64,000 nucleotides of DNA from Eubacterium sp. (GTDB taxonomy: Bacteria > Bacillota > Clostridia > Lachnospirales > Lachnospiraceae). The stretch is taken from the NCBI GenBank assembly GCA_017437905.1, contig JAFRWY010000020.1, forward strand, positions 7,632 to 71,631. The letters run 5' to 3'. Every line of letters starts with the position of its first letter. The first letter of the stretch is position 1. Under the pieces are notes generated by a model. That model worked only from the letters and a program-made list of their open reading frames with translations. It was not told where the DNA came from and did not search any database. The position numbers were made by a program, and so were the translations under genes. Below, piece by piece: positions 12,673 to 34,961 of this stretch.

Positions 12673-12717
12673 GATACGTAAGAGGCAAAAAAACAAAGAA
12701 AAGAGTGTGAAAACACG

Positions 12718-12746
12718 TTGTCAGCAATGGGATGATATGGTAGAAT
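12718..12746 (+). promoter_or_regulatory. Putative sigma-A promoter
   Basis: TTGTCA (12718-12723), a 17-nt spacer, then TAGAAT (12741-12746), upstream of the repeat-protein gene. Confidence 0.45.
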
Positions 12747-12835
12747 CTTTTCATTGGCGCCGGGGGTTACGGCGCAGAGGCACATTTCCGATACGGAGTT
12801 TGATCCGGCAGGGGGAGAAAGGAATCGGTTATTCT

Positions 12836-14791
12836 ATGGCGCACAGAAAAATGAAAAAAGTGTTGATCGGGACGCTGGGACTTGCCATGTCCGGCGGACT
12901 GCTGTTTACTCCGATGACCGGAATATTCGGATCTGAGGAGTCTTCTTACGTGAAAGCGGATACGCTGTACGGATGGGTGACGATCGACGGAGAGACGTAT
13001 TTTTATTACAACGGAGTGAAGAAGACCTACACCTACCGGTATAACGGACGGTTATACTATTTTGATCCCGTGACGGGTGCACAGCAGACCGGATGGATCC
13101 AATACGGCGGAGAATGGTATTATTTCTCACCCTCCACAAATCCGGATGAGCGGTATGCGGTTGACGGCTGGGAAAAGATCGACAACAAGTATTATTATTT
13201 CGATAAGTCGAATAATATGATGTGGAGAAATGCCTGGGTCGAGGTAACTTCCTCCATCCGGTATTACGTAACGAATGACGGCAGCCGTGCTTCGGACTTC
13301 GTGAAGATCGGGGACAACTGGTATTATTTCGATCCGACCTCCGGTGTCCAGAAGACCGGATGGATCACTTATAACAGCAAGAAGTATTATTTCAAAACTG
13401 ACGGAACCATGGCTACGGGCCTTACGACGGTTGACGGAAAAACCTACTATTTCGGAAATGACGGAGCCATGCGCACCGGAACGGTCACCGCAGACGGCTG
13501 GGTCTATACGCTGTCGGATACCGGCGAGCTGATAAAGAAGGAGCAGGTGGTGACCCTGACCGGATGGCAGGAGATCAACGGCAAGACCTACTACTATGAT
13601 GCAAACGGAACCATGATCACCGGCTGGAAGCAGATCTCCGGGAAATATTATTATTTCGATCAGGAAGGCGTGATGCAGACCGGATGGGTTACATACAGCA
13701 GCAAGAAGTATTATCTGGGAATGGACGGTGTGATGCAGACCGGCTGGAAGCAGATCTCCGGCTCCTGGTATCTTTTCACTTCGGGCGGTGAACTGCTGAC
13801 CGGCTGGCAGCAGGACGGTAATAACTGGTATTACCTGCTCCCGTCCACCGGCGCGATGCAGACCGGATGGCAGCACATTTCCGATGCCACATATTATTTC
13901 AACGATAAGGGCATCATGCAGACCGGACTCATCACCTACAGCGGACAGAAGTATTATCTGGATACGAACGGAAAAATGCAGACCGGATGGCAGACCGTAA
14001 ACGGTAAGAAGTATTACATGGCAAATGACGGGGCGGCTGTGACCGACTGGAAGGAGATCAGCGGCAAGCGGTATTACTTCGGAACCGATGCGGTGATGTC
14101 CACCGGATTCCGGACCATCGGCAGCGGGACCTACTATTTCGGTACCGACGGCGTCATGCGGAAGGAATGGCAGACCATCGACGGAAGCAAGTATTATTTC
14201 GGTACCAACGGCATCATGGTAACCGGAAGTACCGTGATCGACGGAACCACCTACCAGTTCGGAACCGACGGAAAACTGATCGAATCATCGCAGGGCGGTG
14301 GGGAACAGGATCCTGATCCGGATCCCGATCCGGACCCGCAGGATCCCCAGCCGGTTGTAAAGACCGGATGGCAGAAGGAAGGCGGAGCCTGGTATTATTA
14401 CAACACGAACGGTAAGAAGGCCACCGGCTGGAAGACCATCAAAAACAAGAAGTACTACTTCGGGACCAACGGTGTGATGCAGACGAAGTGGAAGAAGATC
14501 GGTAACAAATGGTACTACTTCGATCCGGCAAACGGATTCATGGTAACCGGCTGGAAGAAGATCGGCAAATGGTATTATTTCCGTAAGACCGGAGATATGG
14601 CTGCCGGCGAATTCATCCAGGGCTACTGGATCAACAAGGACGGCACCTGCACCGAGACCCGGGTGGCAAAATGGGGCAAGTATCAGGGAAAATGGTGGTA
14701 TGGCTACAGTAAGGGCTGGTATGCAAAGAGCATTACCCTGAAGATCGACGGCAAGGCCTACAGCTTCGACCAGAATGGTTTCTTACGTTAA
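12836..14791 (+). CDS. Secreted cell-wall-binding repeat protein (CW_binding_1 / choline- or glycan-binding-type repeats only)
   Basis: Signal peptide MAHRKMKKVLIGTLGLAMSGG. More than 25 units of about 20 aa of the type GWQxIxGKxYYFxxDGxMxTGW, interrupted by a DPDPDPDPQDPQP linker. The tracked start 12707 lies upstream of the predicted promoter -10, so ATG 12836 is preferred. Confidence 0.85.
   Translation: MAHRKMKKVLIGTLGLAMSGGLLFTPMTGIFGSEESSYVKADTLYGWVTIDGETYFYYNGVKKTYTYRYNGRLYYFDPVTGAQQTGWIQYGGEWYYFSPSTNPDERYAVDGWEKIDNKYYYFDKSNNMMWRNAWVEVTSSIRYYVTNDGSRASDFVKIGDNWYYFDPTSGVQKTGWITYNSKKYYFKTDGTMATGLTTVDGKTYYFGNDGAMRTGTVTADGWVYTLSDTGELIKKEQVVTLTGWQEINGKTYYYDANGTMITGWKQISGKYYYFDQEGVMQTGWVTYSSKKYYLGMDGVMQTGWKQISGSWYLFTSGGELLTGWQQDGNNWYYLLPSTGAMQTGWQHISDATYYFNDKGIMQTGLITYSGQKYYLDTNGKMQTGWQTVNGKKYYMANDGAAVTDWKEISGKRYYFGTDAVMSTGFRTIGSGTYYFGTDGVMRKEWQTIDGSKYYFGTNGIMVTGSTVIDGTTYQFGTDGKLIESSQGGGEQDPDPDPDPDPQDPQPVVKTGWQKEGGAWYYYNTNGKKATGWKTIKNKKYYFGTNGVMQTKWKKIGNKWYYFDPANGFMVTGWKKIGKWYYFRKTGDMAAGEFIQGYWINKDGTCTETRVAKWGKYQGKWWYGYSKGWYAKSITLKIDGKAYSFDQNGFLR
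14309..14353 (+). repeat. Asp-Pro dipeptide linker repeat
   Basis: gat cct gat ccg gat ccc gat ccg gac ccg ... encodes DPDPDPDPDPQDPQP. Confidence 0.9.
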
Positions 14792-16412: not shown

Positions 16413-16545
16413 CGGATGCTTCCCCTTTCTCCCGAAAATGTGTCCGGATATCCTCCGACATCCGCGTCCCGCACACTCTCCGGGACCCTGCTATTGTATC
16501 ATATCCGCATCCGTAACGGCAAGTGCGGGCGTTTTCTGTTTTTCC

Positions 16546-16574
16546 TTGTAAAAGGACTTGTTTTATGTTAAAAT
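16546..16574 (+). promoter_or_regulatory. Putative sigma-A promoter
   Basis: TTGTAA (16546-16551), a 17-nt spacer, then TAAAAT (16569-16574). It would drive a leader of about 180 nt. Confidence 0.5.
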
Positions 16575-16628
16575 GTATATGGGATTGATGTTTGATTCCG
16601 CCGGTGAAAACCGGTTTCCAACTGAATC

Positions 16629-16701
16629 GTATCGGCAAAACCGGGGAAATCCGGCGACGCAAAACTAACAGGGCCTGTAAAATGGCAGCCAGTTGCAATA
16701 C
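16629..16701 (+). promoter_or_regulatory. Candidate c-di-GMP-I (GEMM-I) riboswitch aptamer
   Basis: GGCAAAACCGG-GGAAAU-CCGGCGACGCAAAACUAACAGGGCCUGUAAAAUGGCAGCCAGUUGC reproduces the GEMM-I core as I remember it: GGCAAACC, a GAAA-capped hairpin, GGGACGCAAAGC, ACAGGGxCU and AGCxGGxxGC. Flanking GUAU (16629-32) and AUAC (16698-701) can form P1. Confidence 0.6.
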
Positions 16702-16704
16702 TTG

Positions 16705-16738
16705 ACGGGGCGATCCATATCAGGACGGCCCCGTTTTG
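16705..16738 (+). terminator. Leader terminator hairpin (probable riboswitch expression platform)
   Basis: ACGGGGC (16705-11) pairs with GCCCCGT (16728-34), followed by TTTTG. It lies 20 nt upstream of the GGAGG/GTG start and abuts the 3' P1 strand of the aptamer. Confidence 0.55.
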
Positions 16739-16758
16739 TACATGAAGGAGGTGCAATA

Positions 16759-17997
16759 GTGAAGGGAGCGAAGAAGTTAAAATCCATAATTGTCATGCTG
16801 CTTGCAGCGGTTATGGTTGTCGTGTATATTCCGGCATGGGCTGAGGCCGCCGGGGAACCGGCAGTGATCGACAGGATCGAATTGAAGGTGGAAGTAAAGA
16901 CGGATGTGGGAGAGGCTCCTGCCATCTCTGCAGAGTGTCTGACGGAAGGCGTGACACTGGATGCGGCATTTCTGGAGTCCGTGATCGGTGATATCCAGCA
17001 GGAAGCCACTACACAGAAACAGTTCTACACGGATGAAGCAAGGAATCGGAAACTGGGAAAGAATCTGCTGACAGAGATTGAGGCGGAATCCGAGTATGAT
17101 TTCGGAGTGATCCTGGAGGTGAAGGATCTTTCTGCATACACCGTTGACAGGAGTGTTGTGATCGTATGTAACGATGTGGAGTACATTGCATCCGCAAGAG
17201 AGATCAACAAAACAACGACCGGTATTGTCATCGAGAAGGTGCTCTTCAGGATCGATACTTTTCAAACGGAATCCTTCGACGGCTGGGTGGAGGATGACGG
17301 TTATAAGTATTACTACCGGGAAGGACAGATGGTCACCGGCTTCTGCGGGATTGATAATAAGACGTATTATTTCGCATTTAACGGTGTCATGGCAACCGGC
17401 TGGCAGGAACTCGGGGAAAATAAGTGGTATTACTTCGGAGAAGATGGTGTCATGGCAACCGGCTGGCAGGAACTCGGGGAAAATAAGCGGTATTACTTCG
17501 GAGAAGATGGTGTCATGGCAACCGGCTGGCAGGAACTCGGGGAAAATAAGTGGTATTACTTCGGAGAAAATGGTATCATGGTAACCGGCTGGCAGAGCAT
17601 CCGCAGCAAATGGTACTACTTTAAGAACGGTGTGATGCAAAACGGTTGGAAAAAGATCGGTTCGGACTGGTATTATTTCAAGAGCGGTGTGATGCAGACG
17701 GGCTGGACAAAGATCGGTAACAAATGGTACTACTTCTTAAAAGGCGTGATGCAAGACGGCTGGAAGAAGATCCTTGGGAAATGGTATTACTTTAAACAAG
17801 GCGTGATGGTGGACAAATGGCAGCGGATCGACGGCGGCTGGTACTATTTCAAAGGCGGTGTGATGCAGACCGGCTGGAGGAATTTCAGTGGTAAGTGGTA
17901 TTATCTGCAAAAGAGCGGCCTGATGGCAACCGGAAAACTGCAGATAGGAAAAACGGTTTACTACTTCGGCGGCAACGGGATCTGCAAGAACCCGTAA
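16759..17997 (+). CDS. Secreted protein with a unique N-terminal domain of about 160 aa plus CW_binding_1 repeats
   Basis: GTG start 7 nt after GGAGG. Signal peptide VKGAKKLKSIIVMLLAAVMVVVYIPAWAEA. The C-terminal half is repeats such as GWQELGENKWYYFGEDGVMATGW and GWKKIGSDWYYFKSGVMQTGW. Confidence 0.85.
   Translation: MKGAKKLKSIIVMLLAAVMVVVYIPAWAEAAGEPAVIDRIELKVEVKTDVGEAPAISAECLTEGVTLDAAFLESVIGDIQQEATTQKQFYTDEARNRKLGKNLLTEIEAESEYDFGVILEVKDLSAYTVDRSVVIVCNDVEYIASAREINKTTTGIVIEKVLFRIDTFQTESFDGWVEDDGYKYYYREGQMVTGFCGIDNKTYYFAFNGVMATGWQELGENKWYYFGEDGVMATGWQELGENKRYYFGEDGVMATGWQELGENKWYYFGENGIMVTGWQSIRSKWYYFKNGVMQNGWKKIGSDWYYFKSGVMQTGWTKIGNKWYYFLKGVMQDGWKKILGKWYYFKQGVMVDKWQRIDGGWYYFKGGVMQTGWRNFSGKWYYLQKSGLMATGKLQIGKTVYYFGGNGICKNP
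17383..17571 (+). repeat. Three near-identical 63-bp tandem repeats inside the repeat-protein gene
   Basis: Copies start at 17383, 17446 and 17509. Each encodes GVMATGWQELGENK(W/R)YYFGE(D/N). Copies 1 and 2 differ by essentially one base (tgg/cgg). Confidence 0.9.
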
Positions 17998-18006
17998 CAA
18001 CAGAGT

Positions 18007-18049
18007 GGTTTCCCTGCATGCGGGCGCATGTGGGGAAACCGCTTTTTTT
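18007..18049 (+). terminator. Rho-independent terminator
   Basis: GGTTTCCC...GGGGAAACC hairpin followed by GCTTTTTTT. Confidence 0.7.
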
Positions 18050-18173
18050 CATTCTTATGGTTGAAGAAAACTATGTGAAATGATAGAATAAAATGGACTG
18101 TGAACGGTCAGACAGAGCGCTCCGGCAGCAGGAGAACTGAGGGGCGTTACTTACTATTTCTGGAGGGTTACAT

Positions 18174-20399
18174 ATGGACGAGAGACTTCATCACTGGATC
18201 AACTGGATCCTGTATGACGAGTTGATGGACGGGAAGATCAATGCGCCGAAGCATCTCCTCGGAAATCATGATTTCGGAGACGGTCAGGTGATCACCTGCT
18301 ACAAGCCGCATTCCTCGGGCGTTTCGATCAAAACGCCTGCCGGCAAGACATTGACGCCGATGGAGAAGGTCGGTGAAGATGGATTCTATGGCATCTATTT
18401 CCCGAAAAAGAAATTCAAGGGATCCAATTACCATTTTGTTACGGAATACTATGACGGAACATCCGTGGACACCGCAGACTGCTACAGCTTCGACGGTCAG
18501 ATCACGGATTATGACGCGTATCTTTTTGCGGAAGGCAAGAACTACGACATTTACAATAAAATGGGTGCCCACCCCATGACCATCGACGGTGTGAAGGGTA
18601 CCTACTTCGCGGTCTGGGCACCGGATGCCCGGAGAGTCTCCGTAGTTGGTGATTTCAACATGTGGGACGGTGCGCTGAATCCCATGCAGATCCATCCGGC
18701 TTCCGGAATCTACGAACTCTTTATTCCGGACGTACTTCCGGGTGCGGTCTACAAGTTCCAGATCCTGACCCGTTTCGGTGAGATCCTCTACAAGGCGGAT
18801 CCCTACGGCAATCAGGACCAGGTGCGGCCGGACAACGCCAACATCGTTGCGGATCTTTCCTACAACTGGAAGGATACGGAATGGATCGAGAAGCGGAAGG
18901 AGATGAGCCGCGTGGACCGCATCAAGCAGCCCATGTCCATCTACGAATGCCATCTCGGTTCCTGGAAGAAGAAGGTGGAGGATTCCGATTTCGGTTTCTT
19001 TACATATCGCGAGCTGGCAAAAATGCTGGGAGACTACGTGACCGAGATGGGTTACACCCACATCGAGCTGATGGGTATCGCCGAGTATCCCTTCGACGGT
19101 TCCTGGGGGTATCAGGTAACGAATTATTTTGCACCGACTTCCCGCTACGGAGTCCCCACGGACTTCATGTATTTCGTGGATGAGATGCACCGCCGGGGCA
19201 TCGGCGTGATCCTGGACTGGGTACCGGCTCATTTCCCGCGGGATGCCCATGGCCTGGGACGTTTCGACGGCATGCCCCTTTACGAAAATGCGGATCCCCG
19301 CAAGGGCGAGCATCCGGACTGGGGTACCTACATCTTTGATTACGGCAGAAATGAAGTCATCAATTTCCTCACCTCCAACGCACTGTTCTGGGTGGAGAAG
19401 TATCATATCGACGGCCTGCGGGTGGATGCGGTGGCTTCCATGCTGTACCTGGATTACGGGAAGCGGGACGGAGAATGGGTTGCCAACAAGGACGGCGGCA
19501 AGGAGAATCTGGAAGCCATCGCCCTGCTGCAGAATATCAACAAGGTGATGGAAGAGCGGAACCCCGGCGCATATCTGATCGCCGAGGAGTCCACCGCATG
19601 GCCGGGAGTTACGGCACCGGCGGATATGAAGGGTCTGGGATTCCTCTTCAAGTGGAACATGGGTTGGATGAATGATTTCCTGGAATACATGAAGCTGGAT
19701 CCGTATTTCCGGAAGTTCAACCATAACCGGCTGACCTTCAGTCTGTCCTACACCTATTCCGAGAACTATATCCTCGTGATCTCCCACGATGAGGTGGTTC
19801 ATTTGAAATGCTCCATGCTGAACAAGATGTCGGGTCTGGAGTTCGACAAGTTCGCAAACCTCCGTACGGCATACGGCTTCATGTGCGGCCATCCCGGCAA
19901 GAAGCTGCTCTTCATGGGACAGGAATTCGCACAGCTCCGGGAGTGGTCCGAGGCACGTTCCCTTGACTGGTATCTGCTGGACGACCCGAAGCATAAGGGC
20001 ATGCAGGACTTTGTAAAGGACCTGAACCATATGTACACCAGGTACGATGCGCTGTATTACAATGACAATGATGTCATGGGCTTCGAGTGGATGAAGGTGG
20101 ACGATGCGGATTCCGGCATCGTGGCATTTGTCCGGAGAGGTAAAACAGCGAAGGATCAGCTGCTCTTCATCTGCAATTTCGTACCGGTGGAGCGGAAGGG
20201 TTACCGGATCGGTGTTCCCTGCATTTCCAGCTACAAGGAGATCCTGTCCTCGGATGATCCGAAGTACGGTGGTCTCGGCCGGAACAACAAGAAGGCCATC
20301 AAGGCAGAGGCGGAGCCCTGCGACCGCATGAAGAATTCCATCGTTCTGGATGTACCGCCGCTTTCCGTGACAGTCATGAAATATGACTTTAAGGAGTAA
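18174..20399 (+). CDS. glgB: 1,4-alpha-glucan (glycogen) branching enzyme, GH13
   Basis: Full-length match to the GlgB pattern: N-terminal CBM48-like region, then GH13 motifs GIGVILDWVPAHF, HIDGLRVDAVASMLY, IAEESTAWPGVT and LVISHDEVVH. Confidence 0.93.
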   Translation: MDERLHHWINWILYDELMDGKINAPKHLLGNHDFGDGQVITCYKPHSSGVSIKTPAGKTLTPMEKVGEDGFYGIYFPKKKFKGSNYHFVTEYYDGTSVDTADCYSFDGQITDYDAYLFAEGKNYDIYNKMGAHPMTIDGVKGTYFAVWAPDARRVSVVGDFNMWDGALNPMQIHPASGIYELFIPDVLPGAVYKFQILTRFGEILYKADPYGNQDQVRPDNANIVADLSYNWKDTEWIEKRKEMSRVDRIKQPMSIYECHLGSWKKKVEDSDFGFFTYRELAKMLGDYVTEMGYTHIELMGIAEYPFDGSWGYQVTNYFAPTSRYGVPTDFMYFVDEMHRRGIGVILDWVPAHFPRDAHGLGRFDGMPLYENADPRKGEHPDWGTYIFDYGRNEVINFLTSNALFWVEKYHIDGLRVDAVASMLYLDYGKRDGEWVANKDGGKENLEAIALLQNINKVMEERNPGAYLIAEESTAWPGVTAPADMKGLGFLFKWNMGWMNDFLEYMKLDPYFRKFNHNRLTFSLSYTYSENYILVISHDEVVHLKCSMLNKMSGLEFDKFANLRTAYGFMCGHPGKKLLFMGQEFAQLREWSEARSLDWYLLDDPKHKGMQDFVKDLNHMYTRYDALYYNDNDVMGFEWMKVDDADSGIVAFVRRGKTAKDQLLFICNFVPVERKGYRIGVPCISSYKEILSSDDPKYGGLGRNNKKAIKAEAEPCDRMKNSIVLDVPPLSVTVMKYDFKE

Positions 20400-22902: not shown

Positions 22903-24651
22903 ATGATTCAGAAGCTATTCAAATCGATGGTGATATCGCAGATCGTTTCCGCCATGGCGGTTATGCTCTGTCTTGTCATAGACAGTATTATGATCAGCCG
23001 GTTCCTCGGAACGGATGCCATGGCAGCCTACGGATTTGCGAATCCGGTGCTGCTTGTCTTTGCGTCCTTCGGAAGCCTGCTTTCCAGTGGTATTCAGGTT
23101 GTCTGCAGCCGTGCCATGGGCAAGGGTGACGAAGAAACGATCAACCGCTGCTATTCCCTGTCCGTGATCATAGCAACCGGAGTCTCACTTCTGGGCGTTC
23201 TGCTGGTGATCGTTTTCATTGATCCGCTCTGTGTGGTTCTGGGAGCGAAGAAGGGAACGGCGGTGTTCGAACTGACGAAGGACTATCTGATCGGATTCGT
23301 TCTCGGTGCTCCGTTCTTCATCGCAGCCCAGATCCTGGTACCTTTCCTGCAAATGGCGGGTCAGCGCACCAAGCTGGTGGTTGCCGTGCTCAGTATGACG
23401 GTTTCGGATATCGCATTTGACCTGATCAACGTATTCTGGCTGAAGAAGGGCACTCTGGGTATGGGACTTGCGTCCACCCTCAGTTATGTAGTGGCAGTAG
23501 CCATCGGTATCGTATATTTCTTCCGGAAGGAATGCATCTACAAGTTCCGGGCAAAGAATCTCGGCAACGGACTTTTCAAGGAGATCGCAAAAGGCGGTGT
23601 CCCCACCATGGTGAATCAGGTAAGCCTTGTGCTTCTGGTATATCTGGTCAATCATACCATGGTCCGTGTGGGTCAGGAAGTGGCGGTTGCAGCCTATGCG
23701 GTAGTATCGACCATCGCCAATATCGGTTACTGTATCGGAAACGGTATCTCTGAGGTGACCCTGATGCTGGCAAGTATCTCCTACAATGAAGAAGATGAGA
23801 AGTCTCTCAGCGAGATCGTTAAGAATCAGACGATCTTCTCCATCGGTATCAACCTTTTTGCGGCAATCGTATTCCTTGTGCTTGCGGAACCGGTAGTGAG
23901 TCTGTTTGCTCCGGCGGATACGCCCGAGCGGGGGCCGGCGATCTTCGGACTCCGGATCTTTGCAACCTGTCTGATCATCAGCTCGATCAATGCAGCATTT
24001 AAAAAATACTATCAGGCCATCAACAAAGTCCGTTTCTCGGAATCGATCTCCCTTATGCAGAACCTGGTCTTTCCTGCATGCGTCGTGGTTTCCTTCGGTG
24101 CATTGTTCGGAACCTCCGGTGTATGGTTCTACTATCCTCTGGGTGAGGTCCTGTCCCTGATCTACATTTCCGTCTATGTATGGAAAAAGAGCGGGGCCCG
24201 GTACGGCAGTCATAAGAGCTTTGTCTGTCTTCCGAGAGGCTTCGGAGCGGCGCCCGGTGAGGCCGTGGAGATGGATATCAGGAAAGTGGAGGATATCCAG
24301 GAGGCTGCGATAGAGGCGTCGGAATTCTGCGCTGAGAAGGGTGTATCGAAACGGAAAGCCATGTATACGGCGCTCTGTATTGAAGAGATGGCCAACAATA
24401 TCGTTACCCACGGATTTGTGGAGGGTAAGGATAATCAGATCGATATCCGTATCGTTTACAGGAACGATGAACTGATCGTCCGGATCCGTGATAACTGCAA
24501 GGGCTTTGACCCGGTAAAGTATTATGAAATGATGCGCCCCGACATGGATGATCCCACGAAGCATATTGGTATCCGTATGGTCTTCAAGATGACGAAGGAC
24601 ATCAAGTATGTGAATTCTCTGGGACTGAACTGTCTTACCATGAAGATCTGA
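22903..24651 (+). CDS. MATE-family transporter fused to a C-terminal GHKL/anti-sigma-factor-kinase-like ATPase domain
   Basis: The first ~440 aa have 12 TM helices with MATE-type repeats (AMAAYGFANPVLLVF and VAVAAYAVVSTIANIGY). The C-terminal ~130 aa carry an N-box-like EEMANNIVTHG, IRDNCKGFD and GIRMV, resembling SpoIIAB/RsbW-type HATPase_c_2 domains. Confidence 0.7.
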   Translation: MIQKLFKSMVISQIVSAMAVMLCLVIDSIMISRFLGTDAMAAYGFANPVLLVFASFGSLLSSGIQVVCSRAMGKGDEETINRCYSLSVIIATGVSLLGVLLVIVFIDPLCVVLGAKKGTAVFELTKDYLIGFVLGAPFFIAAQILVPFLQMAGQRTKLVVAVLSMTVSDIAFDLINVFWLKKGTLGMGLASTLSYVVAVAIGIVYFFRKECIYKFRAKNLGNGLFKEIAKGGVPTMVNQVSLVLLVYLVNHTMVRVGQEVAVAAYAVVSTIANIGYCIGNGISEVTLMLASISYNEEDEKSLSEIVKNQTIFSIGINLFAAIVFLVLAEPVVSLFAPADTPERGPAIFGLRIFATCLIISSINAAFKKYYQAINKVRFSESISLMQNLVFPACVVVSFGALFGTSGVWFYYPLGEVLSLIYISVYVWKKSGARYGSHKSFVCLPRGFGAAPGEAVEMDIRKVEDIQEAAIEASEFCAEKGVSKRKAMYTALCIEEMANNIVTHGFVEGKDNQIDIRIVYRNDELIVRIRDNCKGFDPVKYYEMMRPDMDDPTKHIGIRMVFKMTKDIKYVNSLGLNCLTMKI

Positions 24652-24774: not shown

Positions 24775-25057
24775 TGTAAAAGCGATGACAAGGAGTAGTA
24801 GGAGTTCGGAACCTTGCAGAGAGCTGCCGGTTGGTGTGAGGCAGCAGGGGAGGAACATCTGAACTGACCTTCGAGCAGCCGGGGCGAAAGGCAGATGCCG
24901 AGTAGTTGCGGACGGGTCCCGACCGTTATATCGGGAGGATATAAGATTTCGTATTGGAATCCGTATCTGCGATGAGGCCTTACAGTACGTAAGGTGAAGT
25001 AGAGTGGTACAGCGTGTTACAACGCCTCTACGGGGGAACCCGTGGAGGCGTTTTCTT
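24775..25057 (+). promoter_or_regulatory. T-box leader riboswitch, leucine (CUG) specifier, with terminator
   Basis: Stem I elements are GCGAUGA (24782-88), AGUAGUA, AGAGAG (24828-33) and GGUUGGUG (24839-46). The specifier context GAA-CUG-A-CCUUCGAGCA places the codon at 24864-66. The T-box sequence AGAGUGGUACAGCG is at 25001-14. A 13-bp terminator stem (25022-25051) is followed by a T-rich run (TTTCTT). Confidence 0.85.
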
Positions 25058-25267
25058 ATGTGCTTCATCAGATTAATGTGTGATGAAGGTGTGGATTGGA
25101 AGGCCGGATAACCGGTAACGAGCGGTTTGATGGTGTTCGACGGACACAAGGCGCAATGCAGGCGCGAGCCGGTCCGAGCCAACGATTACCTGACGGTATT
25201 GGCCGGCATGAATTTGTTGAAAAAGAAAAGGTTTCATAGTACAATAAGAGATTGGAGGATTGACATT

Positions 25268-26947
25268 ATGAAGAATTACGAACATTACAGAAGAGGCTAT
25301 TTCATGCCGCCGGTGGAGTCCACCGACTGGGTTAAGAAAGAGTATATCGACAAGGCACCGATCTGGTGCTCCGTAGATCTCAGGGACGGAAACCAGGCAC
25401 TGGTGGTTCCCATGAGTCTGGATGAGAAGATCGAGTTCTACAAAGAGCTGATCCGTGTGGGCTTCAAGGAGATCGAAATCGGTTTCCCGGCAGCCAGCGA
25501 GACAGAGTATGTCTTCTGCCGCCGTCTGATCGAAGAGAACCTGATCCCCGATGACGTGACGATCCAGGTGCTTACCCAGGCGCGTGAGCATATCATCCGG
25601 AAGACATTTGAAGCAGTCCGCGGTGCGAACCCGAAGAATGTCATCGTCCATGTTTACAATTCGACCTCTGTGGCCCAGCGGGAGCAGGTGTTCAAAATGT
25701 CGAAGGAAGAGATCAAGAAGATCGCAACGGACGGTGCGGAGCTTCTGAAGCGTCTTGCGGATGAGGACGGTGCACCCTACCGCTTCGAGTATTCGCCGGA
25801 GAGCTTTACCGGAACCGAGCCGGAGTATGCATTGGAAGTCTGCAATGCCGTGCTGGATGTATGGCAGCCGACCCCGGACCGGAAGGCCATCATCAACCTC
25901 CCGGCTACGGTGGAGATGTCCATGCCGCATGTATATGCGAGCCAGATCGAATACCTGAACAAGAATATGAAATATCGTGAAAATGTTGTGCTTTCGCTTC
26001 ATCCCCACAATGACCGGGGTTGTGGCGTTGCGGATGCGGAGCTCGGACTTCTGGCCGGTGCGGACCGGATCGAGGGAACCCTCTTCGGGAACGGCGAGCG
26101 TACCGGAAATGTGGATGTGATCACCCTTGCCATGAACATGTACACCCATGGCGTGGATCCCGAACTTGACTTCTCGGATATGCCCAGGATCCAGGCGACC
26201 TACGAGCGTCTGACCGGCATGGAGATCTACCCGAGAGAGCCCTACTGCGGCAAGCTTGTCTTCGCGGCATTTTCCGGTTCCCATCAGGATGCCATCGCAA
26301 AGGGCATGAAGTACCGCGAGGCAGATCCGAACCAGATGTGGACGGTTCCGTACCTTCCGCTGAATCCGGAGGATATCGGAAGAACCTACGACGGAGACGT
26401 GATCCGTATCAACAGCCAGTCCGGCAAGGGCGGCATCGGCTTCCTGCTTGAGACCAAGTACGGTTTCCTTCTTCCGAAGGCCATGAAGGAGGATGTGGGA
26501 TACACCATCAAGGATTACTCCGACCGTCAGCATAAGGAGCTTCAGCCGGATGAGGTGGTTGAACTCTTTAAGCAGGACTATGTAAATATCAGTACGCCCA
26601 TCAACTATATCGAGTGTCACTTCCAACAGGTGGACGGCATCCGCTGCGAGCTGACCATGGAGCGGGACGGCGTGCATAAGGTATATCACGGACAGGGAAA
26701 TGGACGTCTCGACGCCATCAGTAACGCGCTGAAGCGGCATTTTCATATCGATTACACGCTGATCACCTACGAAGAGCATGCCATCACACGGGGCTCCAAC
26801 TCCCAGGCCTGCGCATATGTGGGGATCCAGAGGAAGGAATCCGGCAAGGTTTACTGGGGAGCCGGGATCCAGGACGATATCATCGTGGCTTCGGCTTATG
26901 CGCTGATCAGTGCGGTGAACCGTTCACTTCAGGCAGAACAGAACTGA
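25268..26947 (+). CDS. leuA: 2-isopropylmalate synthase, long (LeuA type 2) form
   Basis: APIWCSVDLRDGNQALVVPMS, GFKEIEIGFPAAS, LSLHPHNDRGCGVA and a C-terminal regulatory domain are collinear with actinobacterial-type LeuA. ATG 25268 has TTGGAGGA upstream. The tracked start 25127 lies inside the T-box leader region. Confidence 0.9.
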   Translation: MKNYEHYRRGYFMPPVESTDWVKKEYIDKAPIWCSVDLRDGNQALVVPMSLDEKIEFYKELIRVGFKEIEIGFPAASETEYVFCRRLIEENLIPDDVTIQVLTQAREHIIRKTFEAVRGANPKNVIVHVYNSTSVAQREQVFKMSKEEIKKIATDGAELLKRLADEDGAPYRFEYSPESFTGTEPEYALEVCNAVLDVWQPTPDRKAIINLPATVEMSMPHVYASQIEYLNKNMKYRENVVLSLHPHNDRGCGVADAELGLLAGADRIEGTLFGNGERTGNVDVITLAMNMYTHGVDPELDFSDMPRIQATYERLTGMEIYPREPYCGKLVFAAFSGSHQDAIAKGMKYREADPNQMWTVPYLPLNPEDIGRTYDGDVIRINSQSGKGGIGFLLETKYGFLLPKAMKEDVGYTIKDYSDRQHKELQPDEVVELFKQDYVNISTPINYIECHFQQVDGIRCELTMERDGVHKVYHGQGNGRLDAISNALKRHFHIDYTLITYEEHAITRGSNSQACAYVGIQRKESGKVYWGAGIQDDIIVASAYALISAVNRSLQAEQN

Positions 26948-32369: not shown

Positions 32370-32428
32370 GGGGAAAGCCGGGGATCCGGCAGCGTTCATT
32401 TTATCATAGTGCATTTTTCTCCTTCTTA

Positions 32429-32437
32429 TGGTATAAT
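32429..32437 (+). promoter_or_regulatory. Extended -10 promoter element for module A operon
   Basis: TGgTATAAT at 32429-37. There is no good -35. Confidence 0.4.
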
Positions 32438-32474
32438 CCGATTAAGTATGCATAAAAACAAGGAAGGGACGAAC

Positions 32475-34961
32475 ATGAAGATACCTTTTTCACCTCCGGA
32501 TATCCGCGAGAACGACATTGCGGAGGTCTCCGAAGCCCTGCGTTCCGGCTGGATCACCACCGGACCCCGCACGAAAGAATTCGAACGAAAGATTGCCGAA
32601 TATGTCCATACACCCAAGGCTGCCTGCCTTACTTCCGCCACCTCCTGTCTGGAAATGGCGCTCCGTATCCTGGGTATCGGCCCCGGGGACGAAGTGATCA
32701 CTTCGGTCTATACATTTACGGCCAGCGCAAGCCCGATCCACCATGTGGGTGCGAAGATCGTGCTGGTGGATACGAAACCCGGTTCCTATGAGATGGATTA
32801 TGACCAGATGGCCGAGAAGATCACGGAGAAGACGAAGGCCATCATCCCCGTGGATCTGGCGGGTGTGGTCTGTGATTATGAAACCATCTTCCGGATCATT
32901 GAAGAGAAGAAGAGCCTGTTCAGGCCCAACGGACGCTATCAGGAAGCCATCGGACGGATCGCCGTGGTGGCGGATGCGGCCCATTCGCTGGGAGCAAAGA
33001 GGGACGGAAAAATGTGCGGCGAGATCGCCGACTTTACGGCCTTCTCCTTCCATGCGGTAAAGAATCTTACAACGGCAGAGGGCGGTGCTCTTGTATGGCG
33101 CACCATCCCCGGCTGTTCCGATGAAGAGGTCTATAAGAAGCTGATGCTCCTCACCCTGCACGGCCAGAGCAAGGACGCCCTGGAGAAGTCGCAGCTGGGA
33201 GGCTGGGAGTATGATATCCTGATGCCTGCCTACAAATGCAACATGACGGACATGATGGCAGCTGCAGGTCTTACCCAGCTGGCCAGATATGAGGATACCC
33301 TGAAGCGAAGACAGCAGATCGTGGACCGCTACAACGAAGCCTTCTCGGACTTCCCCATCGAGGTGATCCAGTCACCGGAGGTTGCAAAGGAGTCCAGCAA
33401 GCATCTGTACATGCTCCGGATCCGGGGCATCGATGAGGAGAAACGGAATGACATCATTTCCAGGATGACTAAGTTCGGTGTGGCAACCAATGTGCACTAT
33501 AAGCCGCTGGCCATGTACACCGCATATCGTGCCATGGGCTTTGAAATCAAGGATTTCCCGAATGCCTACAGGCAGTATGAAAATGAACTGACACTTCCGC
33601 TGAACACCTGCATGACGGACACGGAGCAGGAATATGTGATCAAATGCTTCGGTGAGGTTCTCGGACAGACCCCGAAGCCGAAGGCAAAGCGGGAACTTCG
33701 TCCTTTCGAGAAGAAGGTATGGCTGTCTTCCCCCACCATGCACGGTCCGGAAATGACCTACGTTCAGCAGGCCTTTGCGACCAACTGGATGTCCACCGTC
33801 GGAGAGAACATCGAAGAGGTGGAACGCCTTACGGCGAAGAAGGTAGGACGGAAGTACTGTGTCGGTCTTTCCGCCGGAACGGCAGCGCTGCATCTGGCAC
33901 TGAAGCTGGCTGCGGAGCAGCTGTACGGCCAGCCGGATCCCATCAGGGGATGTCTTGCGGGGAAGAAGGTCTTCTGCAGCGACATGACATTTGATGCCAC
34001 CGTGAATCCGGTTGCCTATGAGGGCGGCGAGGCTATCTTTATCGATTCGGAGTATGAAACCTGGAATATGGATCCGGTGGCTCTGGAGAAGGCGTTCGAG
34101 ATGTATCCGGAAGTCCGGATCGTGATGCTGGCCCATCTGTACGGGACGCCGGCCAAGATGGATGAGATCCGCGAGGTCTGCAGACGGCACGACGCACTGA
34201 TCGTTGAGGATGCGGCGGAGTCCTTTGGCGCCACCTATCGCGGGATCCAGACCGGAAACTTCGGACAACCCTCCGGTGTGCTCTCGGCCAACGGAAATAA
34301 GATCATCACCGGTTCCTGCGGCGGCATGCTGCTGACGGATGATGAGGAGATGGCGAACAAAGTCCGGAAATGGTCCACCCAGAGCCGTGAGGACGCCCCC
34401 TGGTACCAGCATGAAGAGCTGGGCTATAATTACCGGATGAGCAATGTGATCGCAGGTGTGATCCGCGGACAGCTGCCCTATCTGGAGGAGCATATCGCCC
34501 AGAAGAAGGCGGTTTATGAACGTTATAAGAATGGACTCAGCGATCTGCCGGTGGATATGAATCCGTATCTGGAATATACGGAGCCGAACTTCTGGCTGTC
34601 CTGCTGTACGATCCGTCCCGAGGCCATGTGCCGTCAGGTACGGGGCGAGCGTACCGTACTTTTCCAGAGCGAGCCGGGAAAAACCTGTCCTACGGAAATC
34701 CTTGAGAAACTGGCGGAGTTCAATGCAGAGGGACGTCCCATCTGGAAACCGATGCATATGCAGCCCATTTACCAGACCCATCCGTATATCACTGCGGAGG
34801 GAAGCGGCCGCGCCAGAAGTAATGCTTATATCGACGAAGGAAAGGTCACGGATGTGGGCGCGGATGTATTTGAACGGGGACTTTGTCTGCCCAGTGACAA
34901 CAAGATGACACCCGAGGAGCAGGATGTGATCATCGAGCTGATCCACCGCTGTTTTGAGTAG
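32475..34961 (+). CDS. Tandem fusion of two DegT/DnrJ/EryC1/StrS-type PLP sugar aminotransferases (second half EpsN-like)
   Basis: Half 1 (aa 1 to about 395) has a FSPPDI start, DEVITSVYTF and Schiff-base context FSFHAVKNLTTAEGG. Half 2 (about aa 415-828) has SPTMHGPE, DAAESFGA, SANGNKIITGSCGGML, RPIWKPMHMQPIY and GLCLPSDNKMTPEEQ, closely like B. subtilis EpsN. ATG 32475 has AAGGAAGGGA upstream. Confidence 0.85.
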   Translation: MKIPFSPPDIRENDIAEVSEALRSGWITTGPRTKEFERKIAEYVHTPKAACLTSATSCLEMALRILGIGPGDEVITSVYTFTASASPIHHVGAKIVLVDTKPGSYEMDYDQMAEKITEKTKAIIPVDLAGVVCDYETIFRIIEEKKSLFRPNGRYQEAIGRIAVVADAAHSLGAKRDGKMCGEIADFTAFSFHAVKNLTTAEGGALVWRTIPGCSDEEVYKKLMLLTLHGQSKDALEKSQLGGWEYDILMPAYKCNMTDMMAAAGLTQLARYEDTLKRRQQIVDRYNEAFSDFPIEVIQSPEVAKESSKHLYMLRIRGIDEEKRNDIISRMTKFGVATNVHYKPLAMYTAYRAMGFEIKDFPNAYRQYENELTLPLNTCMTDTEQEYVIKCFGEVLGQTPKPKAKRELRPFEKKVWLSSPTMHGPEMTYVQQAFATNWMSTVGENIEEVERLTAKKVGRKYCVGLSAGTAALHLALKLAAEQLYGQPDPIRGCLAGKKVFCSDMTFDATVNPVAYEGGEAIFIDSEYETWNMDPVALEKAFEMYPEVRIVMLAHLYGTPAKMDEIREVCRRHDALIVEDAAESFGATYRGIQTGNFGQPSGVLSANGNKIITGSCGGMLLTDDEEMANKVRKWSTQSREDAPWYQHEELGYNYRMSNVIAGVIRGQLPYLEEHIAQKKAVYERYKNGLSDLPVDMNPYLEYTEPNFWLSCCTIRPEAMCRQVRGERTVLFQSEPGKTCPTEILEKLAEFNAEGRPIWKPMHMQPIYQTHPYITAEGSGRARSNAYIDEGKVTDVGADVFERGLCLPSDNKMTPEEQDVIIELIHRCFE

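What the first reader, a model, noticed from the sequence alone, without database searches (positions are those of the whole stretch)
16546..16758. Candidate c-di-GMP-I riboswitch with terminator controlling a CW_binding_1 surface protein
Seen: a good promoter (TTGTAA, 17 nt, TAAAAT) drives a leader of about 180 nt. The leader contains GGCAAAACCGGGGAAAUCCGGCGACGCAAAACUAACAGGGCCUGUAAAAUGGCAGCCAGUUGC (16634-16696). This matches the GEMM-I core as I remember it from Vc2 and C. difficile Cd1: GGCAAACC, a GAAA hairpin, GGGACGCAAAGC, ACAGGGUCU and AGCUGGGCUAC. P1 candidates are GUAU and AUAC. A GC-rich hairpin plus T-run (16705-16738) follows 3 nt after P1 and 20 nt before the RBS. Known: c-di-GMP riboswitches control adhesins, pili and flagella in C. 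difficile. Inference: display of this repeat protein is tied to the sessile/motile second-messenger switch. The direction (ON or OFF) cannot be judged by eye.
Basis: partly seen in the sequence, partly recalled or inferred. Interest (0 to 1): 0.65.

Follow-up and report, generated by a model that had tools for sequence, protein, structure and literature searches.

The report
c-di-GMP-I riboswitch before surface-protein gene
The leader of a secreted, cell-wall-binding repeat protein gene in an uncultured ruminant-gut bacterium carries a compact but clear class I cyclic-di-GMP riboswitch followed by a terminator hairpin; this is an ordinary new example of a well-known RNA switch, and its direction (on or off) is still unknown.

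Summary
Rfam's RF01051 (c-di-GMP-I/GEMM-I) model matches window 16624-16700 (+) over its full length, at 51.7 bits against a gathering score of 35 (E 3.4e-7). No c-di-GMP-II match appears. By alignment, the ligand-contact residues are present: G20, A47 and C92 of Vc2 correspond to G16634, A16661 and C16696. The C44-G83 interhelical pair and the GAAA tetraloop are also present.

The gene (16759-17997) encodes a signal peptide, an orphan N-terminal domain and cell-wall-binding repeats. It has its own terminator, so the unit is monocistronic. Four related species have holA directly next to glgB, with no such gene and no riboswitch, so the promoter-riboswitch-gene-terminator unit is a lineage-specific cassette.

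Two points remain open.
- **Direction:** the terminator forms with P≥0.976 with or without the aptamer. No antiterminator or anti-RBS pairing exceeds shuffled controls. I lean OFF, about 50% against 25% ON.
- **Comparative support:** the only relative that carries the riboswitch is 97-98% identical, so covariation cannot be tested.

Verdict: a real riboswitch and a new member of a known kind, of modest interest.

The parts
16546..16574 (+). Sigma-70-type promoter: -35 TTGTAA (16546-51), 17-nt spacer, TG-extended -10 TAAAAT (16569-74). The transcription start is inferred at about 16581.
   Evidence: Promoter scan. Both hexamers are unchanged in the relative L005. The start site is inferred from spacing only.
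16581..16599 (+). Leader hairpin H1 (weak, -3.6 kcal/mol).
   Evidence: Folds. In L005, 16583 G>A turns a G.U pair into A-U and 16590 G>U lies in the loop.
16600..16615 (+). Leader hairpin H2, GCCGGU-GAAA-ACCGGU (-9.1 kcal/mol). It resembles the aptamer's P2 hairpin, and its strands can cross-pair with the P2 strands, which makes it a possible anti-aptamer.
   Evidence: The H2 x P2 duplex is -25.8 kcal/mol against -17.8 +/- 3.3 for shuffles (fraction 0.017, not corrected for 8 tests). The cross-paired fold is about 9 kcal/mol more stable than the aptamer fold in the nearest-neighbour model.
16624..16701 (+). c-di-GMP-I (GEMM-I) aptamer. P1 is 16629-32/16698-701. P2 is 16635-36/16659-60 plus 16641-45/16650-54, with a GAAA loop at 16646-49. 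P3 is 16663-66/16691-94 plus 16671-75/16684-86 and 16689-90. The Vc2 equivalents are G20=G16634, A47=A16661, C92=C16696, C44=C16658 and G83=G16688.
   Evidence: cmscan RF01051, 51.7 bits against a gathering score of 35. Residues were mapped with the Vc2 base pairs listed in PMC11705072. L005 scores 53.3 bits.
16704..16739 (+). Intrinsic-terminator-like hairpin (stem 16704-11/16728-35 with an inner 3-bp stem, -20.3 kcal/mol), followed by UUUUGU.
   Evidence: The L005 substitutions are compatible with the stem: 16730 C>U gives G.U, and 16726 C>U lies in an internal loop.
16745..16761 (+). Ribosome-binding site AAGGAGGU (16745-52) and GTG start codon (16759-61).
   Evidence: Sequence. ORF frame. 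The same start is called in L005.
16759..17997 (+). Regulated gene, 412 aa: a Sec signal peptide (AWA/EA), an orphan N-terminal domain of about 165 aa, and cell-wall/choline-binding repeats (about 8 matched stretches) at the C-terminus.
   Evidence: Pfam PF19127/PF01473. In 1.84 billion representative proteins the N-terminal domain has two relatives that align over most of the domain, at 81% and 31% identity; the other five hits are short partial matches. The signal peptide was read by eye.
18004..18050 (+). The gene's own intrinsic terminator (-30.7 kcal/mol stem plus U7). It closes a monocistronic unit ahead of glgB's separate, conserved promoter (about 18062-18092).
   Evidence: The sub-threshold 'mir-299' match is this hairpin.

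Best explanation
This is a genuine class I cyclic-di-GMP riboswitch (GEMM-I, type 1, with a GAAA tetraloop). It sits in the roughly 178-nt leader of a monocistronic gene for a secreted, cell-wall-anchored repeat protein, in an uncultured Lachnospiraceae-like bacterium of the ruminant gut.

Proposed mechanism:
1. Transcription starts about 7 nt after the TAAAAT box.
2. After two small leader hairpins, the aptamer folds (16629-16701).
3. c-di-GMP binds at the three-helix junction through G16634, A16661 and C16696 and locks the weak 4-bp P1.
4. Three nucleotides later a GC-rich hairpin plus U-run decides whether RNA polymerase reaches the gene.

The aptamer and the terminator share no nucleotides and can exist together. 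The most likely logic is therefore an OFF switch, in which ligand-bound aptamer plus terminator gives premature termination, as in all tested C. difficile class I switches. I put OFF at about 50%, ON at about 25%, and another output or none at about 25%.

Shown here: the aptamer's identity, its key residues, the hairpin, the gene's content and the limits of the transcription unit. Inferred: ligand binding, use of the terminator and the direction.
For: - Aptamer: RF01051 at 51.7 bits against a gathering score of 35, full model, E 3.4e-7. The relative L005 scores 53.3 bits.
- Core residues: G20, A47, C92, C44 and G83 equivalents and the GAAA loop are all present (alignment; Vc2 pairs from PMC11705072; residue roles from PMC4744006).
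- Ligand specificity: G rather than A at position 20 argues for c-di-GMP and against the cGAMP variant.
- Promoter: found by the scan.
- Terminator: -20.3 kcal/mol, and it coexists with the enforced aptamer at P=0.977.
- Transcription unit: the gene has its own terminator, and glgB has its own promoter that is conserved in relatives.
- Substitutions: all five in the leader of L005 are compatible with the structure, including G.U to A-U in P2 and in H1 and G-C to G.U in the terminator.
- Precedent: C. difficile class I switches are transcriptional OFF switches (PMC11477304).
Against: - No switching helix is detectable. The terminator forms at P>=0.976 with or without the aptamer.
- Every candidate antiterminator or anti-RBS pairing is within the shuffled range, with fractions of 0.23 to 0.91.
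- The U-tract has only 4 U.
- The distal helix of P3 is missing. The model's 13 positions are replaced by 2 nt, and the tetraloop receptor is only partly recognisable.
- P1 has only 4 bp and is not part of the Rfam model.
- The leader is no better conserved than the genomic background between the window and L005, at 96.7% against 96.8-98.6%, so no purifying selection or covariation can be shown.
- Class I switches before adhesin genes can be ON: Bc2/cap (PMC4933901) and Vc1/gbpA (PMC4744006).
Confidence: 0.8

Rival explanations
1. Same aptamer, opposite logic: an ON switch. The terminator forms by default, and c-di-GMP binding promotes read-through, so the surface protein is made in the high-c-di-GMP (sessile) state, as for Bc2/cap in Bacillus thuringiensis and Vc1/gbpA in Vibrio cholerae.
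For: - The terminator is the thermodynamic default in the ligand-free ensemble (P 0.976).
- The cargo is a surface, adhesin-like protein, the kind of gene that class I ON switches Bc2 and Vc1 induce (PMC4933901; PMC4744006).
- The ligand-free leader prefers an anti-aptamer fold (H2 x P2) by about 9 kcal/mol.
Against: - The bound aptamer and the terminator share no bases and coexist at P 0.977.
- The leader segments left free in the bound state have no pairing with the terminator above chance.
- In Bc2 the terminated product is only about 121 nt, which I read as a terminator overlapping the aptamer; the paper does not say so. Here the two are separate.
Confidence: 0.25
2. The aptamer binds c-di-GMP, but the output is not termination. 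The ligand-bound fold could instead change mRNA stability or processing (a 5' structure that blocks exonuclease, or a cleavage site) or translation. The hairpin would then be a constitutive partial attenuator.
For: - No ligand-dependent change in terminator probability is predicted.
- The U-tract is short.
- In the full-length ligand-free minimum-energy fold, the 5' strand of P3 (16664-78) pairs with the RBS and start region (16747-60).
- Vc2 is reported to act through RNA stability (bioRxiv 10.1101/617340, listed; title and abstract only).
Against: - The P3-RBS pairing is at chance level (-11.2 kcal/mol against -10.7 +/- 1.9; fraction 0.36) and adds only about 2 kcal/mol.
- The RBS is unpaired in both main folds.
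- A strong hairpin plus U-run 3 nt after P1 is the standard Firmicute riboswitch layout.
Confidence: 0.1
3. The match is a decayed or non-functional aptamer, or a chance match, carried along with a recently acquired gene cassette. It has no regulatory role.
For: - No covariation is available, and conservation does not exceed the background.
- P3 is truncated and the receptor is degenerate.
- P1 is weak.
- The cassette is absent from four related species.
Against: - E 3.4e-7 against all Rfam families, with full model coverage.
- Every residue known to contact the ligand or form the interhelical pair is intact.
- The position is exactly between a promoter and a terminator-RBS.
- A second aptamer with the same compact P3 lies before another secreted protein gene in L007.
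- Similar compact aptamers at other loci are present at high contig depth in a rumen metatranscriptome.
Confidence: 0.05

Closest known systems
Cd1 and the other class I c-di-GMP riboswitches of Clostridioides difficile (Rfam RF01051)
   Same: Same aptamer family. Clostridia-class host. Aptamer followed by an intrinsic terminator in the 5' leader. [quoted passage not shown] These switches act as transcriptional OFF switches (PMC11477304).
   Different: Here P3 is truncated to a short hairpin. The J1/2 junction is 1 nt, against 5 nt in Vc2. The cargo is a cell-wall-binding repeat protein with an orphan N-terminal domain. No antiterminator can be recognised. Nothing has been tested experimentally.
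Bc2 riboswitch before cap (collagen adhesion protein), Bacillus thuringiensis
   Same: Class I aptamer with a GNRA tetraloop, a terminator-based expression platform, a monocistronic surface or adhesin cargo, and a Firmicute host (PMC4933901).
   Different: Bc2 is a proven ON switch whose terminated product is about 121 nt. I read that length as a terminator overlapping the aptamer; the paper does not state this. Here the terminator lies wholly outside the aptamer (16704-35 against an aptamer ending at 16701) and can coexist with it.
Vc2 (tfoY) aptamer of Vibrio cholerae, the structural reference
   Same: G20, A47 and C92, the C44-G83 interhelical pair, the GAAA tetraloop and the G21-C46/C22-G45 pairs all have equivalents here (PMC11705072).
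   Different: Vc2 has a long P3 with a defined tetraloop receptor (A61-U77, U60-A78, A62 stacking on A33) and a G14-C93 pair under the ligand. Here the C93 equivalent is A16697, opposite C16633, and the receptor region is an 8-nt terminal loop (UGUAAAAU).
L007 leader (metagenome contig ERZ894191 NODE-5755)
   Same: It has the same compact-P3 form of GEMM-I: 'UCGGCAA', 'GACGCAAA', 'GGGCCUGUAxAUGGCAGCC' and 'GCA' after P3. It also lies upstream of a gene for a secreted protein with a signal peptide.
   Different: Its expression platform is about 200 nt long, with the terminator far from the aptamer. It has no H2-like hairpin, and the downstream protein is unrelated.

Membership tests
c-di-GMP-I riboswitch (GEMM-I, Rfam RF01051) | Covariance-model score at or above the curated gathering score | tested here: met
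   51.7 bits against 35, E 3.4e-7, model positions 1-87 of 87. The relative L005 scores 53.3 bits.
c-di-GMP-I riboswitch (GEMM-I, Rfam RF01051) | Ligand-contact residues G20, A47 and C92 (Vc2 numbering) | tested here: met
   G16634, A16661 and C16696, from the cmscan alignment. The register was fixed by the Vc2 pairs G21-C46, C22-G45, A48-U90 and G14-C93 (PMC11705072). Residue roles come from PMC4744006.
c-di-GMP-I riboswitch (GEMM-I, Rfam RF01051) | Interhelical Watson-Crick pair C44-G83 | tested here: met
   C16658 (in GACGC) and G16688 (in AGC) are present at the aligned positions. Sequence level only.
c-di-GMP-I riboswitch (GEMM-I, Rfam RF01051) | GNRA tetraloop on the first hairpin (type 1) | tested here: met
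   GAAA at 16646-49, closed by a 5-bp CCGGG/UCCGG stem.
c-di-GMP-I riboswitch (GEMM-I, Rfam RF01051) | Tetraloop receptor in the second hairpin | tested here: inconclusive
   CCU...AUGG is kept, but the positions of the AA platform read G77 U78. The distal helix is absent: cmscan uses a local end, with 13 model positions replaced by 2 nt. The Vc2 A62G mutant still binds ligand, though it folds slowly (PMC11705072).
c-di-GMP-I riboswitch (GEMM-I, Rfam RF01051) | Closing helix P1 that joins the 5' and 3' ends of the aptamer | tested here: met
   GUAU 16629-32 pairs with AUAC 16698-701, giving 4 contiguous pairs. The helix is weak and is not scored by the Rfam model. L007 has a similar layout.
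c-di-GMP-I riboswitch (GEMM-I, Rfam RF01051) | Compensatory base changes in relatives | tested here: inconclusive
   There is a single aptamer substitution in L005 (G16645A, G.U to A-U). Genomic background identity is 97-98%. No more distant orthologue was found.
c-di-GMP-I riboswitch (GEMM-I, Rfam RF01051) | Ligand-dependent alternative structure in the expression platform | tested here: inconclusive
   A terminator is present, but its probability is >=0.976 in both states. No antiterminator exceeds the shuffled controls.
c-di-GMP-I riboswitch (GEMM-I, Rfam RF01051) | Specific binding of c-di-GMP | not testable with these tools
   This needs in-line probing, ITC or equilibrium dialysis.
c-di-GMP-II riboswitch (Rfam RF01786) | Covariance-model match | tested here: not met
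   No match at the gathering score or at E<=1 anywhere in the window.
3',3'-cGAMP riboswitch (GEMM-Ib) | Adenine at the position of Vc2 G20 | tested here: not met
   The position is G16634. That the defining change is G20 to A comes from my own knowledge of Kellenberger 2015 and Nelson 2015. Those papers were not read here.

The most novel reading that the evidence does not exclude
This could be a minimal GEMM-I variant: no distal P3 helix, a degenerate tetraloop receptor and a 1-nt J1/2 junction. Its expression platform might work by an unusual logic. An upstream decoy hairpin (H2, GCCGGU-GAAA-ACCGGU) would cross-pair with P2 to hold the ligand-free leader in an anti-aptamer fold, and the output would not depend on a classical antiterminator. 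If so, compact aptamers of this kind, which seem common and highly transcribed in rumen communities, would form a distinct sub-class with its own folding and switching rules.
Probability: 0.12. Interest if true: 0.5.

Novelty: new member of a known kind. Interest (0 to 1): 0.25.

Why it matters
It adds one more gene type, a cell-wall-binding repeat protein with an orphan N-terminal domain, to the set of surface functions wired directly to c-di-GMP by RNA. The host is an uncultured ruminant-gut Lachnospiraceae-like lineage. The promoter, riboswitch, gene and terminator travel as one self-contained accessory cassette, which shows how a second-messenger input can be acquired together with a surface protein. 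The compact P3 makes the aptamer a convenient small test case for how much of the tetraloop-receptor dock GEMM-I really needs. None of this changes current understanding, and standard Rfam-based annotation would flag the element.

Tried and rejected
1. **Distant orthologues of the cargo gene.** The genome-contig scan returned only repeat-region matches, none with a riboswitch. The word-indexed protein search with the N-terminal 204 aa found nothing. The full HMMER scan of 1.84 billion representatives found two relatives that align over most of the domain (81% and 31% identity) and five short partial matches. The 31% relative (L006) follows a radical-SAM gene by 22 nt and has no riboswitch.
2. 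**DNA pattern for compact-P3 GEMM-I.** There were 0 hits in viral contigs and 1 in metagenome contigs (L007). That is too few for a covariance analysis.
3. **Synteny walk through holA homologues.** The relatives lack the cassette altogether, so they give no comparative data on the expression platform.
4. **Transcript ends from public RNA data.** Only one metatranscriptome holds related sequence, and it is stored as contigs, so it gives no 3'-end information.
5. **Antiterminator and anti-RBS candidates, all within the shuffled range.** These were the P3 5' strand x terminator 5' strand, GACGC...x terminator 5' strand, H1 5' strand x terminator loop, CAAAACCGGGG x CCCCGUUUUG (-19.3 kcal/mol, fraction 0.23) and P3 5' strand x RBS.
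6. **H2 x P2 cross-pairing.** It is nominally above chance (0.017) but does not survive correction for 8 tests. L007 has no equivalent hairpin (by eye).
7. **Structure of the N-terminal domain.** The single-sequence AlphaFold model has pLDDT 35 and is unusable, so no fold search was run.
8. **Possible loss of C92.** I first suspected that Vc2 C92 was replaced by A16697. The pair list in PMC11705072 shows that C92 is the first C of the consensus 'gCC', which is C16696. A16697 corresponds to C93.
9. **c-di-GMP turnover genes.** A motif scan for GGDEF and HD-GYP in the window's ORFs found none. 'EAL' appears in four ORFs; Pfam, run on three of them (polyphosphate kinase, ComEC-like, DegT-type aminotransferase), found no EAL domain.

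Full report
**Observation**

- The promoter scan finds TTGTAA-17-TAAAAT at 16546-16574, with a TG extended -10. It reports 3 promoter-like sites in 600 nt against 0.6 expected from shuffles.
- The quoted 63-nt string is exactly 16634-16696.
- GUAU (16629-32) and AUAC (16698-701) are complementary.
- A GC-rich hairpin at 16704-16735 (-20.3 kcal/mol) is followed by UUUUGU.
- One correction: the hairpin and T-run end about 6 nt before the RBS (AAGGAGGU, 16745-52) and about 21 nt before the GTG start at 16759. They are not 20 nt before the RBS.

A scan of the whole window against all 4227 Rfam families gives two matches above their gathering scores. One is a T-box at 24776-25032. The other is RF01051 (c-di-GMP-I) at 16624-16700 on the + strand: 51.7 bits against a gathering score of 35, E 3.4e-7, covering the model end to end. 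A permissive scan at E<=1 adds nothing relevant and gives no c-di-GMP-II match.

**Aptamer anatomy**

I placed the cmscan alignment in Vc2 numbering using the base pairs listed in PMC11705072: G14-C93, G21-C46, C22-G45, A48-U90 and C44-G83.
- The three ligand-contact residues named in PMC4744006 are all present: G20=G16634, A47=A16661 and C92=C16696.
- The partners of the interhelical pair are present: C44=C16658 and G83=G16688.
- The first hairpin carries a GAAA tetraloop (16646-49).
- G rather than A at position 20 argues against the cGAMP-sensing variant. That rule comes from my own knowledge.

Three features are atypical.
- The distal part of the second hairpin is missing. The model's 13 positions are replaced by 2 nt, so the tetraloop-receptor region (CCU...AUGG) sits in an 8-nt terminal loop without the usual AA platform.
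- The C93 equivalent is A16697, so the pair directly under the ligand differs from Vc2.
- P1 is only 4 bp and is joined to G20 by a single C.

One other aptamer with the same compact form was found in a metagenome contig (L007). It also lies ahead of a gene for a signal-peptide protein. Several rumen metagenomes and one metatranscriptome hold contigs from other loci that match 16632-16700 at about 85-90% identity. Two of these in the metatranscriptome match only 16651-16697 and have contig depths of 125 and 191.

**The regulated gene and its unit**

The ORF starting at GTG 16759 and ending at 17997 encodes 412 aa.
- It starts with a Sec-type signal peptide (read by eye).
- A domain of about 165 aa follows, with no Pfam match.
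- The C-terminus carries about eight cell-wall/choline-binding repeat matches (PF01473, PF19127).

The N-terminal domain is close to an orphan. A HMMER pass over 1.84 billion representative proteins gave seven hits at E<=0.001, of which two align over most of the domain, at 81% and 31% identity; the rest are short partial matches. A single-sequence structure prediction was unusable (pLDDT 35).

A strong terminator follows the stop codon (18004-18050, -30.7 kcal/mol, U7). glgB (18174-20399) has its own promoter region, which is recognisably conserved in related species. The riboswitch therefore controls this one gene.

**Relatives and origin**

An identical leader lies on a short ENA contig (L004). 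A syntenic 117-kb contig (L005) carries the same rpsT-holA / riboswitch-gene-glgB-symporter order, and its RF01051 hit scores 53.3 bits.

L005 differs from the window at seven positions in the promoter-leader (16546-16758). Two lie in the promoter spacer (16557-58). The other five, in the transcribed leader, are all compatible with the proposed structure:
- G.U to A-U in P2 (16645) and in H1 (16583);
- G-C to G.U in the terminator (16730);
- two loop changes (16590 and 16726).

The two genomes are 97-98% identical throughout: holA 97.1%, glgB 98.6%, leader 96.7%. This therefore shows neither selection nor covariation. The cargo gene has diverged faster (91% in the N-terminal part) and differs by a 126-nt repeat indel.

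I then walked out through holA homologues. In four related species, with 75, 72, 70 and 56% holA identity, glgB lies directly next to holA across 187-307 nt. They have no repeat-protein gene there and no RF01051 hit. The promoter-riboswitch-gene-terminator unit is therefore a lineage-specific cassette inserted between holA and the glgB promoter.

The nearest named holA relatives, at about 43-44% identity, are from Roseburia. The DNA is found in bovine and goat gut metagenomes.

**Mechanism**

The layout of promoter, aptamer, hairpin plus U-run 3 nt after P1, RBS and start codon is the standard Firmicute transcription-attenuation design.

With the aptamer pairs enforced, the terminator still forms (minimum pair probability 0.977). 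In the unconstrained ensemble it forms as well (0.976). The aptamer and terminator share no bases and can coexist, which is what an OFF switch needs in its bound state.

I could not find the ligand-free antiterminator that an OFF switch also needs. Every candidate pairing lies within the range of dinucleotide shuffles, with fractions of 0.23-0.91. This holds for pairings of the leader or aptamer with the terminator's 5' strand, with its 3' strand plus U-run, and with the RBS-start region.

The only complementarity nominally above chance is between an upstream hairpin, H2 (16600-15, GCCGGU-GAAA-ACCGGU), and the aptamer's P2 strands: -25.8 kcal/mol against -17.8 +/- 3.3 for shuffles, a fraction of 0.017 before correction for eight tests. 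In the nearest-neighbour model this cross-paired fold is about 9 kcal/mol more stable than the aptamer fold. It could act as an anti-aptamer, but it does not touch the terminator, and L007 has no equivalent.

Precedent is split. All class I switches tested in C. difficile are OFF (PMC11477304). Bc2 (before the collagen adhesin gene cap) and Vc1 (before gbpA) are ON (PMC4933901; PMC4744006). The terminated Bc2 product of about 121 nt suggests to me a terminator overlapping the aptamer, unlike here; the paper does not say this.

I therefore lean OFF at about 50%, with ON at about 25% and a non-termination output or no regulation at about 25%. The direction is unresolved.

**Comparison and novelty**

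On every sequence-level criterion I could test, this is a member of RF01051. The tetraloop receptor, covariation and the switching helices are inconclusive, and ligand binding cannot be tested here. The element is not c-di-GMP-II and not the cGAMP variant.

A full-text search found no paper that mentions a c-di-GMP riboswitch together with cell wall binding repeat proteins. Surface and adhesin cargo is nonetheless typical for this riboswitch class. The finding is a new member of a known kind, and routine Rfam-based annotation would flag it.

**Verdict**

Two things remain worth testing: how this compact aptamer couples to a terminator with no visible antiterminator, and what the cargo protein does.

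Noticed in passing
window 16413-18173, compared with L008, L011, L012 and L013: The promoter-riboswitch-repeat-protein-terminator unit is absent from four related species (holA 56-75% identical). There, glgB sits 187-307 nt from holA. The cassette is a lineage-specific insertion upstream of the conserved glgB promoter (about 18062-18092).
   Followed up: yes
window 24776-25032 (+), with the ORF at 25127-26947: A T-box leader (115.3 bits against a gathering score of 93) lies upstream of an isopropylmalate synthase (LeuA-type: HMGL-like, IPMS_D2 and LeuA_dimer domains). The specifier codon was not read.
   Followed up: partly
window 12707-14791 (+): A second, larger choline/cell-wall-binding repeat protein (694 aa, at least 15 repeat matches) lies just upstream of rpsT. 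It has no Rfam match in front of it. It is 95% identical in L005, and repeat proteins occupy the same position in L011 and L013.
   Followed up: partly
window 22903-24651 (+): One ORF combines an N-terminal MatE/polysaccharide-synthesis-type membrane domain with a C-terminal HATPase_c_2 (anti-sigma-factor/kinase-like ATPase) domain.
   Followed up: no
window 16600-16615: The leader hairpin GCCGGU-GAAA-ACCGGU closely resembles the aptamer's P2 hairpin (ACCGGG-GAAA-UCCGGC). Its strands can exchange with the P2 strands, giving a fold about 9 kcal/mol more stable than the aptamer in the nearest-neighbour model. It may be a decoy or anti-aptamer, or simply a by-product of the palindromic CCGG stems.
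   Followed up: partly
window 16632-16700, in runs X1, X7, X9 and X25: Contigs from other loci in bovine gut metagenomes match the compact aptamer at about 85-90% identity and then diverge. In a metatranscriptome, two such contigs match only 16651-16697 and have depths of 125 and 191. This would fit abundant (perhaps terminated) leader RNAs of this aptamer subtype in the rumen.
   Followed up: partly
window 17382-17587: The number of repeats varies. A 126-nt (42-aa) repeat unit is skipped in contigs of runs X1 and X9. The L005 orthologue is 42 aa shorter (370 against 412 aa).
   Followed up: partly
window 18000-18047: A sub-threshold 'mir-299' Rfam match (25.9 bits against 67) is simply the long perfect hairpin of the gene's intrinsic terminator.
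   Followed up: yes
window 37847-59465: A run of same-strand ORFs includes several large proteins that start like signal peptides (1317, 821 and 987 aa), downstream of a doubled DegT-type aminotransferase (32409-34961). It may be a surface-polysaccharide or surface-protein region. It was not annotated.
   Followed up: no
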